From NCBI RefSeq assembly GCF_054482595.1, contig NZ_CM137008.1: DNA of 64,000 bases; one strand, given 5' to 3'. The notes beneath the pieces were generated by a model. That model was not told the origin of the DNA and made no database searches. It saw only the letters and a list, made by a program, of their open reading frames with translations. Made by a program: the position numbers and the translations under genes. Shown here piece after piece: positions 45,874 to 64,000 of this stretch (position 1 is its first letter; the number at the start of each line of letters is the position of its first letter).

Positions 45874-46545
45874 ATGCAGTACCCGATTAACGAGATGTTC
45901 CAGACCCTGCAAGGTGAGGGTTACTTTACCGGCGTCCCCGCCATTTTTATTCGTTTACAGGGATGCCCGGTTGGCTGTGCCTGGTGCGACACCAAACACA
46001 CCTGGGAAAAGCTTGAGGATCGGGAAGTCTCCCTTTTCAGCATTCTGGCGAAGACCAAAGAGAGTGATAAGTGGGGGGCGGCGAGCAGTGAAGACTTGCT
46101 GGCTGTCATTGGTCGCCAGGGATATACCGCGCGGCATGTGGTGATTACGGGTGGTGAGCCTTGCATTCATGATTTGCTGCCACTGACTGACCTGCTCGAA
46201 AAGAACGGTTTTAGCTGCCAGATCGAAACCAGTGGTACTCATGAGGTACGCTGCACACCGAATACCTGGGTTACCGTATCGCCAAAGCTGAACATGCGCG
46301 GCGGCTATGAAGTGTTGTCACAGGCACTGGAGCGAGCCAACGAAATCAAGCATCCAGTGGGGCGCGTACGTGATATTGAAGCACTGGATGAACTTTTGGC
46401 GACGCTGACCGATGATAAACCGCGAGTCATTGCACTGCAGCCGATTAGCCAAAAGGATGATGCCACACGTTTGTGCATTGAAACCTGCATTGCGCGTAAT
46501 TGGCGTTTGTCGATGCAAACCCATAAATATTTAAATATTGCCTGA
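45874..46545 (+). CDS. queE: 7-carboxy-7-deazaguanine synthase (radical SAM)
   Basis: 223-aa ORF MQYPINEMFQTLQGEGYFTGVPAIFIRLQGCPVGCAWCDTK (CxxxCxxC variant cluster). Confidence 0.9.
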   Translation: MQYPINEMFQTLQGEGYFTGVPAIFIRLQGCPVGCAWCDTKHTWEKLEDREVSLFSILAKTKESDKWGAASSEDLLAVIGRQGYTARHVVITGGEPCIHDLLPLTDLLEKNGFSCQIETSGTHEVRCTPNTWVTVSPKLNMRGGYEVLSQALERANEIKHPVGRVRDIEALDELLATLTDDKPRVIALQPISQKDDATRLCIETCIARNWRLSMQTHKYLNIA

Positions 46546-46699
46546 TTAAACATTTATAAGCGTTATAAATGGGTGGAACCTGTAAAGACTTCTACTCATT
46601 TATATTCTTTGTCGTCTCTGAAAAACCTCCATTTTGCCCATCCTGAACTAATCATTATCATTCTCTACAAATTCTGTGGCGTTAATTTTTCGCTGGAGT

Positions 46700-46883
46700 G
46701 AAAATTATTGCGGTAAAGTTTGGTAGATTTTAGTTTGTATAGAGTTATTTTAAATATTTACCTTTTTAATCAATTGGTTAAGTGCTCTTTAACATAATGG
46801 ATGTGTTGTTTGTGTGATACTGTAAAGTTGGTAGATTGTGACTGGCTTAAAAAATCATTAATTAATAATAGGTTATGTTTAGA
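46700..46883 (+). promoter_or_regulatory. CRISPR leader (AT-rich), ending ...aataataggttatgtttaga before the first repeat
   Basis: AT-rich non-coding sequence directly upstream of repeat 1; the degenerate repeat lies at the opposite end of the array. Confidence 0.7.
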
Positions 46884-47339
46884 GAGTTCCCCGCGCCAGC
46901 GGGGATAAACCGGCCTGGCGATTTCTCGTCAGGCCTTGCGGTGTGAGTTCCCCGCGCCAGCGGGGATAAACCGTCAGTAAAGCGGCGCCCACTGATATCG
47001 GATTAGAGTTCCCCGCGCCAGCGGGGATAAACCGAGGGGCAGGGAGTGACGCTGGAGCAGGCGATCGAGTTCCCCGCGCCAGCGGGGATAAACCGGGAAA
47101 TTAGGCAAATGTGAACACGGCGGCCCCGAGTTCCCCGCGCCAGCGGGGATAAACCGCCAGTATTTTGTCGTGGATTGCGGGATCACCAGAGTTCCCCGCG
47201 CCAGCGGGGATAAACCGTTGAGTTTGTTCGTAACAACGCGGGTCATCTGGAGTTCCCCGCGGCAGCGGGGATAAACCGGGTACAAAAGAGGCCCCATTCT
47301 GGCAGGGCTCAAGTTCCCCGCGCCAGTGGGGATAAACCA
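46884..47339 (+). CRISPR. Type I-E CRISPR array: 8 repeats of 29 nt, 7 spacers of 32 nt, no adjacent cas genes
   Basis: Repeat GAGTTCCCCGCGCCAGCGGGGATAAACCG at 46884, 46945, 47006, 47067, 47128, 47189, 47250 (one C-to-G variant) and degenerate terminal repeat aagttccccgcgccagtggggataaacca at 47311; exact 61-nt period. Confidence 0.95.
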
Positions 47340-47809
47340 CCATATAACCCGTTATCTCTTTCTCAAGTTTTTATATTAGCAGTACTCGTAATAAGCAACA
47401 TATCCACGTAACACCTCATGTTCAAAATAGTTCCCCATGCCAGATAAGTTCACAATTATCGATACAAAAAATCAAATTTAATCAAAGTGTTATTTGTATA
47501 ATCCTTAAACCGTTAAGAAATTTTAATGTATTATTTTTTTTAATATTAATTAATGCCTGTTAATTTTTTCTTTAGAATAACAGTGTGTTTTTTAAGCTTG
47601 TTATTCATTGATTAAGTAATAAATCTGGAAATTTGTCTTTGTTTTGAGGCTAATGAGTGGTTTTACATAACCGCCTCTATACGCTGTTGATGAATGGTTC
47701 TTATGAATAAAGATATCCAGTTCATACTTTAAGTGTAAATTGATAAAGTGCGATTCGTATTGTCTTTTATTCTAAAGACATCGAGTGTAGTTAATATTCC
47801 TTGTAAAAA

Positions 47810-47932
47810 CAGGGATAAACCGAACTAGTTAAAGTTTTTATTATGTTCCCTGCATCAGCGGGGATAAACCGGACTTGTTATCATTTTTTAAGTTGTCGAA
47901 CTTATGTTCCCCGCGTCAGCGGGGATAACCAT
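47810..47932 (+). CRISPR. Degenerate remnant CRISPR array (partial repeat, 2 degenerate repeats, one 32-nt spacer)
   Basis: cagggataaaccg (47810..47822), atgttccctgcatcagcggggataaaccg (47843..47871), 32-nt spacer, atgttccccgcgtcagcggggataaccat (47904..47932); a further repeat fragment agttccccatgccag lies near 47429. Confidence 0.75.
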
Positions 47933-47977
47933 TCAGGTATGTTCAGGCCGGGCTGTTTCCCGCCCGGCCTTCCTCAC

Positions 47978-49456
47978 TTACGCATTCGACCAGCTCTGGA
48001 TCGAATCCGCATTTCCCAATTCCCCATGCATCACTTCATACGATTTTTTCAGAATCACATCAGTATGTTTGGTTAGGTCTTTGAAAATGCCTTTATTCAT
48101 CGCGTCGTAGCGTTTGGCATTGCTCTCAATCGGTATAAAGATATCTTTCACGCGAACCATTTTATCGACAGCCGTTGCGTAATCCGGGTATAGCCCCAGA
48201 CCTACCGCTGTATTAATCGCTGCCCCCAGGCTTGCACAACCGTTAATGGCGTTACGTCGTGCCGGAAGGTTGAACACGTCGGCAAAAATCTGCATAAACA
48301 GATCGCTGTTCGAACCGCCGCCAGTAATGATTACATGCTTCGCAAAGTGATTCATTTCATTACACATATTGTCGTAATTGTTCTTCAGCGTCAGCGCCAC
48401 GCTTTCCAGTATCGAACGATATATCCATGCGTAATCCATGCTGGAATCAAAGCCGATCATAATCCCGCGTTTGTACGGTTCCCACGGATTGGTCAGCCAG
48501 TCCAGCACCGTCATCAGCCCATTACAGCCAGGTGGCACACTAGAGGCTTTCTTGTTGAGTAAATCTTCCGGTGAAAGATCCTGCGCCCTGGCATCCTGAA
48601 TTAACGACTCGCCTAACATGTCGCGCAGCCAGCTCACCGTCCACATGCCTTTGCGAATACCGTAACCTTCATACAGCAATGTTTGCGGAATAGAAGACAT
48701 AATCGGCCAGTACGCCACCGGATCTTTCGGCAAGGCTTTGCCGTTCATCATCAATGCGATGTAAGTGCCAAGAGAAATTACCGCAGTTTCATCATCCAGT
48801 AATCCGGCCCCCAGAGCTTCTACCGGTTTATCACTGGTGGTACAAACAACCGGCAGTCCTGCCGGGAAATGTGTCGCCAGTGCGGCTTGTGGTGTGATCT
48901 GTCCAAGGACGGTGCCAGGCATTTGCACATCAAACAGCATATGACGGGGGATATTAAACTTATCCATTACCGCAGCATCTTCACTCCATGCCCAGGTCTT
49001 ATAATCCACCGGCCACTGACCAAAATAGTTGGCGATATTGTCTTTAAACTCGCCGGTTAAGCGATGCGTCAGATAACCCGAAAAAGAGGTGACATAGGCC
49101 ACGTCAGGATTAGTGTGTTCGTAGGGACGCGTTACGCGTGCATCCTGCCAGCTAATCAATGGCGCAGCTGGCGTGCCATCGGCTTTCAATAACGCACGGC
49201 AGCAACGGATGGATCCCAGACCAATACCGACAATATCTTCTTTATTCCCGGCAAACTGACTCATCAAATCGTGACCGGCAAAACATAATGATGCCCATAA
49301 ATCGTCGTCAGGATGTTCTGCGGTATCGGCATCTGGCGTGTGCATCGGCTGCAATAAACCTTTGCCTTCGCAAACCACGTTACCTTCCAGATCGTACATC
49401 ACCACTTTTGTGCTCTGACTTCCGCCATCAATCCCTATGATGTATTTCTTCGACAT
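47978..49456 (-). CDS. ygcE: FGGY-family carbohydrate kinase
   Basis: 492-aa ORF MSKKYIIGIDGGSQSTKVVMYD; FGGY N- and C-terminal domains. Confidence 0.85.
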   Translation of the reverse strand: MSKKYIIGIDGGSQSTKVVMYDLEGNVVCEGKGLLQPMHTPDADTAEHPDDDLWASLCFAGHDLMSQFAGNKEDIVGIGLGSIRCCRALLKADGTPAAPLISWQDARVTRPYEHTNPDVAYVTSFSGYLTHRLTGEFKDNIANYFGQWPVDYKTWAWSEDAAVMDKFNIPRHMLFDVQMPGTVLGQITPQAALATHFPAGLPVVCTTSDKPVEALGAGLLDDETAVISLGTYIALMMNGKALPKDPVAYWPIMSSIPQTLLYEGYGIRKGMWTVSWLRDMLGESLIQDARAQDLSPEDLLNKKASSVPPGCNGLMTVLDWLTNPWEPYKRGIMIGFDSSMDYAWIYRSILESVALTLKNNYDNMCNEMNHFAKHVIITGGGSNSDLFMQIFADVFNLPARRNAINGCASLGAAINTAVGLGLYPDYATAVDKMVRVKDIFIPIESNAKRYDAMNKGIFKDLTKHTDVILKKSYEVMHGELGNADSIQSWSNA

Positions 49457-63822: not shown

Positions 63823-64000
63823 TTATTTTGCGAGCAGCATTCCTGATTTTAAACGTGAACGCCGCTGGAAGAATTATCAGGTATAGAATGGCGTCGGGTG
63901 CTTGAGGCTGTCTGGCGTTAAGCATTCGCGAGGTTCCAGATGGACAAAAGCCCCAGGCGATATTTCTATCAACCTGAGGCTCGCGTTCGAACGTAGCAAT

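What the first reader, a model, noticed from the sequence alone, without database searches (positions are those of the whole stretch)
47340..47977. Second, decayed CRISPR remnant plus an isolated repeat fragment in the AT-rich spacer before ygcE
Downstream of the main array is a 470-bp AT-rich stretch containing a lone fragment agttccccatgccag (about 47429), then a mini-array at 47810..47932 with a truncated repeat, a 20-nt spacer-like segment, a degenerate repeat, one intact 32-nt spacer (gacttgttatcattttttaagttgtcgaactt) and a further degenerate repeat. This looks like a fossil of a once-larger array or a second leader/array unit.
Basis: seen in the sequence. Interest (0 to 1): 0.4.

Follow-up and report, generated by a model that had tools for sequence, protein, structure and literature searches.

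The report
E. coli's known relic mini-array CRISPR2.2
The small degenerate repeat cluster in front of ygcE is real, but it is the already described leaderless "CRISPR2.2" relic array found almost unchanged in about three quarters of E. coli genomes, so it is ordinary.

Summary
After the 8-repeat main array (46884-47339) come 454 AT-rich bases (28% G+C). Then comes a mini-array at 47794-47932: repeat, 20-nt spacer, repeat, 32-nt spacer, terminal repeat. It ends 45 nt before the ygcE stop codon. One correction: the first repeat is full length (47794-47822), not truncated. It is degenerate but still folds into the type I-E hairpin.

This is the published CRISPR2.2 array of the E. coli CRISPR-II locus (queE/ygcF-ygcE). 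[quoted passage not shown] K-12 carries the same units. The 139 nt occur in 4156 of 5426 complete E. coli genomes, at least 99% identical in 3868.

Some strains have a single fused array ending in the same terminal repeat. One strain lost exactly one 61-nt unit. E. whittamii has a leader plus only that terminal repeat. [quoted passage not shown]

The 0.5 kb shows no detectable similarity to a leader. The lone fragment at 47429 is weak and strain-specific. No spacer target was found. The mini-array is not more conserved than its neighbour. Already known; low interest.

The parts
45874..46545 (+). queE (ygcF), the upstream flanking gene of the CRISPR-II locus
   Evidence: RefSeq annotation of the 100%-identical record NZ_CP019359.1, transferred by coordinate offset. 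The stop codon is visible.
46546..46883 (+). Leader 2.3, the AT-rich leader of the main array (30% G+C)
   Evidence: It sits directly upstream of the first repeat. It is nearly identical in K-12, SF-166 and XJ5.2. It is named leader 2.3 in PMC3903273 and PMC3737337.
46884..47339 (+). Main array (CRISPR2.3): 8 repeats and 7 spacers with a 61-nt period. The last repeat is degenerate (AGTGGGG, ending ...ACCA).
   Evidence: Annotated as a CRISPR direct_repeat in RefSeq.
47340..47793 (.). AT-rich 0.45-kb stretch separating the two arrays (28% G+C). No function is assigned.
   Evidence: No ORF that looks like a gene. No Rfam family. Promoter-like and terminator-like sites occur at chance level. No similarity to leaders beyond shuffles. 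No match in true plasmids. Present in about 4150 of 5426 E. coli genomes. The sub-block 47421-47620 is hypervariable, with pi 0.084 among 12 strains.
47429..47443 (+). Isolated repeat-like 15-mer AGTTCCCCATGCCAG. Its status is doubtful.
   Evidence: 13 of 15 to the repeat, and 13 of 1000 shuffles do as well. It has no hairpin. The allele differs among strains. It lies 117 nt after the start of the last main repeat, which is two periods minus 5.
47794..47822 (+). Mini-array repeat R1: full length and degenerate, with the hairpin kept
   Evidence: in register with R2, 22 of 29. (same 7-bp stem and 4-nt loop, with two pairs changed on both sides and one wobble).
47823..47842 (+). Spacer S1, 20 nt (20% G+C), 12 nt shorter than normal
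   Evidence: R1-to-R2 spacing is 49 instead of 61. It varies at one position, in one of the 12 strains. It matches S2 in register at 12 of 20.
47843..47871 (+). Mini-array repeat R2 (24 of 29 to the consensus, intact hairpin and intact 3' handle ATAAACCG)
47872..47903 (+). Spacer S2, 32 nt (31% G+C), invariant across E. coli
   Evidence: 100% identical in 4048 of the 4062 genomes that hold it. No protospacer in phages, plasmids or elsewhere in E. coli genomes.
47904..47932 (+). Terminal repeat R3 (perfect stem, GTCA loop, tail ATAACCA); the ancestral end of the CRISPR-II array
   Evidence: The same repeat-plus-flank closes the fused arrays of SF-166 and XJ5.2. It is the only repeat in E. whittamii.
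47948..47971 (.). G+C-rich hairpin between R3 and the ygcE stop codon. It is not followed by a T-run on either strand.
   Evidence: Sequence. It folds. The terminator scan did not call it.
47978..49456 (-). ygcE (FGGY-family sugar kinase), the downstream flanking gene

Best explanation
The feature is the CRISPR2.2 array of the E. coli CRISPR-II locus. It is a three-repeat, two-spacer, leaderless relic of the type I-E (CRISPR2 repeat) system.

Shown here:
- It sits between queE (ygcF) and ygcE, 454 nt downstream of the active, leader-bearing CRISPR2.3 array.
- Its units are shared essentially unchanged by about three quarters of E. coli genomes.
- Its last repeat, R3, is the true terminal repeat of the locus.
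- It changes only by loss: whole-unit deletion, or repeat-to-repeat recombination that fuses it with the main array.

Inferred:
- It is the old leader-distal (trailer) end of an ancestral array.
- Because new spacers in type I-E systems are inserted only at the leader-repeat junction, a block cut off from any leader by about 0.45 kb of AT-rich DNA cannot grow. It just persists and slowly decays.
- R2 and R3 keep the Cas6e hairpin and handle. If transcription from the CRISPR2.3 promoter reads through, one 61-nt crRNA carrying S2 could still be cut out in strains that have Cas6e. There is no evidence that this happens or that it has a target.
For: Identity and position:
- Searches give the layout queE, leader, 8-repeat array, 454 nt, three repeats and two spacers, ygcE.
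[quoted passage not shown] - K-12 MG1655 has the same mini-array and the same spacers.

Species-wide invariance:
- The 139 nt are found in 4156 of 5426 genomes, at least 99% identical in 3868.
- S2 is 100% identical in 4048 of 4062 genomes.

R3 as the terminus, and loss-only dynamics:
- Fused arrays ending in R3 occur in SF-166 and XJ5.2, matching the two-repeat CRISPR2.2-3 reported for B2 strain LF82 (PMC2941450).
- Strain 118 has an exact 61-nt unit deletion.
- E. whittamii has a leader plus a single R3-type repeat.

No leader.

Hairpins retained.

cas genes: a complete type I-E cas operon lies about 16 kb away in the genome that is 100% identical over the finding's coordinates.
Against: The direction of the event is not resolved. 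Two histories remain possible: an array split by inserted DNA, or two arrays fused by deletion in B2 strains and E. whittamii. The only outgroup obtained lacks the 0.5 kb.

Both mini-array spacers are AT-rich (20% and 31% G+C), like the adjacent 0.5 kb and unlike the visibly G+C-richer main-array spacers (their G+C was not computed). A simple old-trailer model does not predict this.

R1 keeps its hairpin through paired changes. That could hint at selection rather than free decay, although the chance probability is 0.13-0.16 if only transitions occur.

Transcription and processing of the mini-array were not tested.
Confidence: 0.85

Rival explanations
1. CRISPR2.2 was an independent second array with its own leader, and the AT-rich 0.45 kb is that leader, now decayed and inactive.
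For: The stretch has the same G+C content as the real leader (28% against 30%). It lies directly upstream of R1 in the correct orientation. The alignment test is weak, because even the two genuine leaders, 2.3 and 2.1, do not align above shuffles.
Against: No similarity to either leader beyond chance: 98 of 300 and 65 of 300 shuffles do as well. No promoter-like site on the + strand within 47342-47793. The spacers never vary among more than 4000 genomes. Published descriptions list leaders for CRISPR2.1 and 2.3 only. At 454 nt it is longer than the 338-nt leader 2.3.
Confidence: 0.12
2. The 0.45 kb is itself a run of about 7-8 decayed repeat-spacer units, and the lone fragment at 47429 is the last recognisable repeat. 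On this view the whole 47311-47932 stretch was once one continuous array.
For: The fragment matches the repeat at 13 of 15, with p about 0.013. It lies 117 nt, about two periods, after the last main repeat. The 532 nt from the last main repeat to R2 is close to 9 periods once the 12 nt missing from S1 are added back.
Against: No other position in the 452 nt exceeds 12 of 29 matches to the repeat on either strand. The fragment has no hairpin. It reads AGCTCTCCATATATG in 5 of 12 strains. R2 and R3 next door are nearly intact, so such uneven decay is unlikely. The stretch has 28% G+C, whereas the main-array spacers are visibly G+C-richer (their G+C was not computed).
Confidence: 0.08
3. The mini-array is kept by selection for a function of its own. 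Candidates are a conserved crRNA from S2, or structured RNA or DNA hairpins acting on transcription at the end of the array or of ygcE.
For: All three repeats fold into the same hairpin, and R1 does so through two double changes and one wobble. Only 0.5% of random-substitution trials keep all pairs. Among 12 diverse strains the mini-array has the lowest diversity of the region, pi 0.009 against 0.050 in the 0.45 kb. The 5' handle, S2 and the 3' hairpin of a potential crRNA are intact.
Against: With the consensus allele as query, the neighbouring 139 nt of the 0.45 kb are about as conserved across the database (89% of genomes at 99% identity or more) as the mini-array (93%). Under a transitions-only model the hairpin retention has p of 0.13-0.16. 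About a quarter of E. coli genomes lack the mini-array, and it is lost cleanly in single strains. No target for S1 or S2 was found in phages, plasmids or E. coli genomes.
Confidence: 0.06
4. The resemblance to CRISPR repeats is a chance feature of the sequence.
For: This can be argued only for the lone fragment and for R1 taken alone.
Against: R2 lies within 3 mismatches of a 27-nt core where 0.00 matches are expected. R2 and R3 are exactly 61 nt apart and in register. The hairpins are retained. The literature identifies the array.
Confidence: 0.01

Closest known systems
CRISPR2.2 array of the E. coli CRISPR-II (ygcE-ygcF/queE) locus (Diez-Villasenor et al. 2010, as cited in PMC4489801, PMC3903273, PMC3737337 and PMC11251922)
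   Same: It has the same genomic position, the same make-up (3 repeats, 2 invariable spacers) and the same 0.5-kb separation from CRISPR2.3. It lacks a recognised leader in the same way. It is the same sequence as in K-12 MG1655.
   Different: Nothing substantive differs. This window is one more strain carrying it. Two details may or may not be in the 2010 paper, which I could not read: R1 is full length with its hairpin kept, and S1 resembles S2.
CRISPR2.3 (CRISPR-II main array) and CRISPR2.1 of the E. coli type I-E system
   Same: They share the same 29-nt repeat family and hairpin, the 61-nt unit (R2 to R3), the same orientation and the same locus.
   Different: Those arrays have leaders, strain-specific spacers and variable length. 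The mini-array has none of these. Its repeats are degenerate, and S1 is only 20 nt.
Fused CRISPR2.2-3 array (for example B2 strain LF82, PMC2941450; SF-166 and XJ5.2 here)
   Same: It has the same terminal repeat R3 and the same flank towards ygcE.
   Different: The fused form lacks the 0.45 kb and the R1-S1-R2-S2 units. This window carries the two-array form.
Orphan or degenerate CRISPR remnants in general (arrays without an adjacent leader or cas genes)
   Same: It is non-acquiring, with degenerate terminal repeats and conserved trailer-end spacers.
   Different: Here a complete type I-E cas operon of the matching type exists about 16 kb away in the 100%-identical genome. The remnant is therefore orphaned from a leader, not from cas genes.

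Membership tests
CRISPR2.2 of the E. coli CRISPR-II locus | Located between ygcE and ygcF (queE) | tested here: met
   queE is at 45874-46545 (+) and ygcE at 47978-49456 (-). The definition comes from PMC3903273.
CRISPR2.2 of the E. coli CRISPR-II locus | Three type-2 repeats and two spacers that are the same in all strains | tested here: met
   R1-S1-R2-S2-R3 at 47794-47932. Identical in K-12. At least 99% identical in 3868 of 4156 genomes. S2 is 100% identical in 4048 of 4062. The definition comes from PMC4489801.
CRISPR2.2 of the E. coli CRISPR-II locus | Separated by about 0.5 kb from the leader-bearing CRISPR2.3 array | tested here: met
   454 nt lie between 47339 and 47794. The figure comes from PMC3903273.
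Functional type I-E CRISPR array | 29-nt direct repeats of the I-E consensus with the Cas6e stem-loop | tested here: met
   R2 matches at 24 of 29, R3 at 23 of 29 ungapped, and R1 at 18 of 29. All three fold into the 7-bp stem and 4-nt loop.
Functional type I-E CRISPR array | Regular 61-nt period with 32-nt spacers | tested here: inconclusive
   R2 to R3 is 61 nt with a 32-nt spacer. R1 to R2 is 49 nt with a 20-nt spacer.
Functional type I-E CRISPR array | Adjacent AT-rich leader with promoter and integration signals | tested here: not met
   No similarity of 47342-47793 to leader 2.3 or 2.1 beyond shuffles, though the test has low power. No + strand promoter-like site there. The literature lists no leader for CRISPR2.2.
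Functional type I-E CRISPR array | Spacer content varies between strains through leader-end acquisition | tested here: not met
   The same two spacers occur in all strains examined, and the only variants seen are losses. Partial-coverage matches were not inspected one by one.
Functional type I-E CRISPR array | Spacers match mobile-element protospacers | tested here: not met
   The best phage hits have E of 0.3 or more. In the plasmid collection the only strong hits are three E. coli chromosomes filed as plasmids, and all others have E of 1 or more. There are no extra sites in E. coli genomes, and none on plasmids.
Functional type I-E CRISPR array | Transcribed and processed into crRNA by Cas6e | not testable with these tools
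   This needs RNA data. A cas6e gene is present in the 100%-identical genome XH990.

The most novel reading that the evidence does not exclude
The mini-array is not a passive fossil but is kept because its three hairpins, or the single invariant crRNA it could yield from S2, do something. Possibilities include ending read-through transcription from CRISPR2.3 before it runs antisense into ygcE, or providing a conserved guide with a non-defence role. The structure-preserving paired changes in R1 would be the trace of that selection.
Probability: 0.06. Interest if true: 0.45.

Novelty: already known. Interest (0 to 1): 0.08.

Why it matters
It matters little. The locus has been described since 2010 and is used routinely in E. 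coli CRISPR typing.

The practical point is for annotation. In every RefSeq record inspected here, only the main array is marked as CRISPR and the mini-array is left unannotated. An automatic or naive reader will therefore keep rediscovering it.

If the minority reading were true, and the hairpins or the S2 crRNA were under selection, it would be an example of a CRISPR remnant taken over for a host function. The conservation control run here does not support that.

Tried and rejected
1. Second-leader idea. I aligned the 0.45 kb locally against leader 2.3 and the K-12 leader 2.1. The scores equalled those of shuffles. It is rejected as unsupported, with the caveat that the test has low power.

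2. Hidden repeats in the 0.45 kb. A full-length scan against the repeat on both strands found nothing above 12 of 29 apart from the lone fragment.

3. RNA families, ORFs, promoters and terminators in 46400-48100. There was no Rfam hit of note, only short ORFs running through repeats, and site counts at chance level.

4. Mobile-element origin of the 0.45 kb. The only plasmid-collection matches are three E. coli chromosomes filed as plasmids. No terminal inverted or direct repeats of note were found. The 10-mer AAGTTTTTAT that occurs twice is at the level expected by chance for AT-rich DNA, by my own estimate.

5. Protospacers for S1 and S2 in phages, plasmids and all complete E. coli genomes. 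None was found.

6. Special conservation of the mini-array. A 12-strain sample suggested five-fold lower diversity. Two database controls seemed to agree, but they were misleading because the window carries private SNPs there. Repeating the control with the consensus (K-12) allele removed the contrast: 89% against 93% of genomes at 99% identity or more. Rejected.

7. Compensatory evolution in R1 as proof of selection. The probability is 0.005 under any-substitution but 0.13-0.16 under transitions only. This is suggestive only.

8. S1 and S2 as duplicates. They match 12 of 20 in register, p about 0.01-0.02, and 2% of neighbouring AT-rich 20-mers do as well. This stays a possibility only.

9. 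Outgroups. Other Escherichia species and Salmonella were not reached.

10. Literature. The primary 2010 paper is not held. A literal search for the spacer and repeat sequences found no paper. The "CRISPR2.2" of PMC4524480 uses a different nomenclature and is not this array.

Full report
**What is in the sequence**

The window carries the E. coli queE (ygcF)-ygcE intergenic region (annotation of the 100%-identical record NZ_CP019359.1). Its layout is:
- queE ends at 46545.
- An AT-rich leader runs to 46883.
- A regular type I-E array of 8 repeats and 7 spacers occupies 46884-47339, with a 61-nt period.
- 454 AT-rich bases follow at 47340-47793; 47342-47793 has 28% G+C.
- A mini-array lies at 47794-47932.
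- A G+C-rich hairpin lies at 47948-47971.
- ygcE is on the minus strand at 47978-49456.

**Checking the observation**

The mini-array consists of five units:
- R1, 47794-47822.
- S1, 47823-47842, 20 nt.
- R2, 47843-47871.
- R3, 47904-47932.

R2 lies within 3 mismatches of the 27-nt repeat core, where shuffles of the window give 0.00 expected matches. R2 and R3 are in register with the main array family and 61 nt apart. This is not chance.

One correction is needed. The first unit is not a truncated repeat beginning at 47810. It is a full-length 29-mer from 47794, ATATTCCTTGTAAAAACAGGGATAAACCG, which matches R2 at 22 of 29.

All three mini-array repeats fold into the same 7-bp stem and 4-nt loop as the consensus repeat. 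They do so both alone and within a 201-nt transcript. R1 keeps the stem through two pairs changed on both sides (C-G to U-A) and one wobble.

**The lone fragment**

AGTTCCCCATGCCAG at 47429-47443 matches the repeat at 13 of 15. A match this good appears in 13 of 1000 shuffles of the 452-nt stretch, so it is nominally significant in this strain.

Several points weaken it:
- It has no hairpin.
- Nothing else in the stretch exceeds 12 of 29 matches to the repeat.
- In 5 of 12 compared E. coli strains the site reads AGCTCTCCATATATG.

It lies 117 nt after the start of the last main repeat, which is two periods minus five. I treat it as a doubtful remnant at best.

**What it is**

The feature is already described. 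Three passages apply:
[quoted passage not shown] It places leaders next to CRISPR2.1 and CRISPR2.3.
- PMC3737337 says that K-12, O157:H7 and BL21-AI all harbour CRISPR2.2 and CRISPR2.3-leader2.3.

These papers cite Diez-Villasenor et al. 2010, which I could not read.

K-12 MG1655 has the same R1-S1-R2-S2-R3, base for base, in the same place.

**Distribution across E. coli**

- The finding's 638 nt match in 4542 of 5426 complete E. coli genomes, always on the chromosome. In 4123 genomes the match covers at least 80% of the query.
- The 139-nt mini-array is found in 4156 genomes, at least 99% identical in 3868.
- S2 alone is 100% identical in 4048 of the 4062 genomes that hold it. It matches no plasmid, and no more genomes than carry the mini-array itself.
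- In every RefSeq record inspected, only the main array is annotated as CRISPR.

**How the locus varies**

- Strains SF-166 and XJ5.2 have one fused array whose last repeat carries the R3 tail and flank...GGGGATAACCATTCAGG. This matches the two-repeat CRISPR2.2-3 reported for B2 strain LF82 (PMC2941450).
- Strain 118 lacks exactly 61 nt, which is R2 plus S2.
- IS1 copies interrupt the locus in three further strains.
- A scan of one genome per species with the R3-plus-flank 20-mer found only E. whittamii. There the leader, with an internal deletion, is followed by a single R3-type repeat and then ygcE.

R3 is therefore the ancestral terminus of the locus. The mini-array behaves as an array only in that it loses units by repeat-to-repeat recombination. 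No strain with extra spacers in the mini-array was seen.

**The 0.45 kb**

- It does not align to leader 2.3 or to the K-12 leader 2.1 better than shuffles do: 98 of 300 and 65 of 300 shuffles score as well. The two real leaders also fail this test against each other, so its power is low.
- It has no convincing ORF, no Rfam match of note, and promoter-like and terminator-like sites at chance level, none of them on the + strand inside it.
- It has no source in true plasmids.
- Its middle part, 47421-47620, is hypervariable among strains, with pi 0.084.

**Is the relic under selection?**

In 12 strains chosen across the identity range, the mini-array had the lowest diversity in the region. Its pi was 0.009, against 0.050 for the 0.45 kb and 0.02-0.05 for the 3' end of ygcE.

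Two database controls seemed to confirm this. They were artefacts, because the window carries private SNPs in the control segments.

With the consensus (K-12) allele as query, the neighbouring 139 nt of the 0.45 kb are at least 99% identical in 3700 of 4152 genomes. The mini-array figure is 3868 of 4156. There is no meaningful contrast.

The hairpin retention in R1 has probability 0.005 if any substitution is allowed. It rises to 0.13-0.16 if only transitions occur, and all five stem changes observed are transitions.

S1 and the start of S2 match 12 of 20 in register, with p about 0.01-0.02. This may mean an old unit duplication, but it is not conclusive.

Neither spacer has a detectable target in phages, in plasmids or elsewhere in E. 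coli genomes.

**Most likely mechanism**

What is shown is the identity as CRISPR2.2, the invariance across the species, R3 as the terminus, and loss-only dynamics.

The rest is inferred. It is the old leader-distal end of the CRISPR-II array. It is separated from the only leader by AT-rich DNA, so it cannot acquire spacers, because type I-E integration takes place at the leader-repeat junction (established knowledge of the system). It therefore persists as a slowly decaying relic.

R2 supplies an intact 5' handle, ATAAACCG. R3 supplies an intact hairpin. The genome that is 100% identical over the finding's coordinates has a full type I-E cas operon about 16 kb beyond ygcE, although its cas1e is frameshifted. 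One S2 crRNA could therefore still be made if transcription reads through. This is untested.

Whether the two-array form arose by insertion, or the fused forms arose by deletion, is unresolved.

**Verdict**

The feature is already known and ordinary.

Noticed in passing
window 47421-47620: The middle of the AT-rich stretch is hypervariable among 12 E. coli strains: pi is 0.084 and 43 of 200 sites segregate, several-fold above the flanks. The variation includes a clustered 4-nt allele, GCCA versus ATAT, at 47439-47442.
   Followed up: partly
window 47823-47842 vs 47872-47891: The two mini-array spacers resemble each other in register at 12 of 20 (p about 0.01-0.02), and both are AT-rich. This may reflect an ancient duplication of one repeat-spacer unit followed by a 12-nt deletion in S1.
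   Followed up: partly
L009 2957-3260 (E. whittamii, minus strand): The E. whittamii locus is a leader with an internal deletion followed by a single R3-type repeat directly before ygcE. There are no spacers at all.
   Followed up: partly
L012 (E. coli strain 118), aligned to window 47843-47903: This strain has a clean 61-nt deletion of R2 plus S2, showing that the relic still loses whole units by repeat-to-repeat recombination.
   Followed up: yes
L005, L006, L007, L014, L015: IS1 copies lie in or next to the locus in XJ5.2, LR-24 and OkiPb01688. In M6 and Z1323HEC0009, ygcE is truncated and joined to queD, implying a deletion of about 10 kb covering ygcE to ygcN.
   Followed up: no
window 47794-47932 and RefSeq records L001, L003, L011, L013-L018: In every RefSeq record inspected, the queE-proximal main array is annotated as CRISPR where it is annotated at all, and the mini-array is never marked.
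   Followed up: yes
L019 16924-26805 (strain XH990); window end at 64000: The genome that is 100% identical over the finding's coordinates has a complete type I-E cas operon and a CRISPR2.1 array about 16 kb beyond ygcE, with cas1e annotated as frameshifted. By coordinate offset the window stops about 130 nt before cas3.
   Followed up: no
window 47684 and 47724: The window strain carries two SNPs here that none of the 11 other aligned strains shares: G in aatGgtt and T in gtgTaaa. Consistent with this, only 21 of 4152 genomes match 47640-47778 at 99% or more. These SNPs made window-based conservation controls misleading (versus 53).
   Followed up: yes
window 47250-47339: The last two repeats of the main array each carry a point change. 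One is a loop change, GCCA to GGCA, at 47263. The other, GCGGGG to GTGGGG at 47327, leaves a G-U wobble in the stem.
   Followed up: no
window 47948-47971: The G+C-rich hairpin between R3 and the ygcE stop codon has no T-run on either strand and was not called as a terminator. It is polymorphic among strains, mostly by changes that keep pairing.
   Followed up: no
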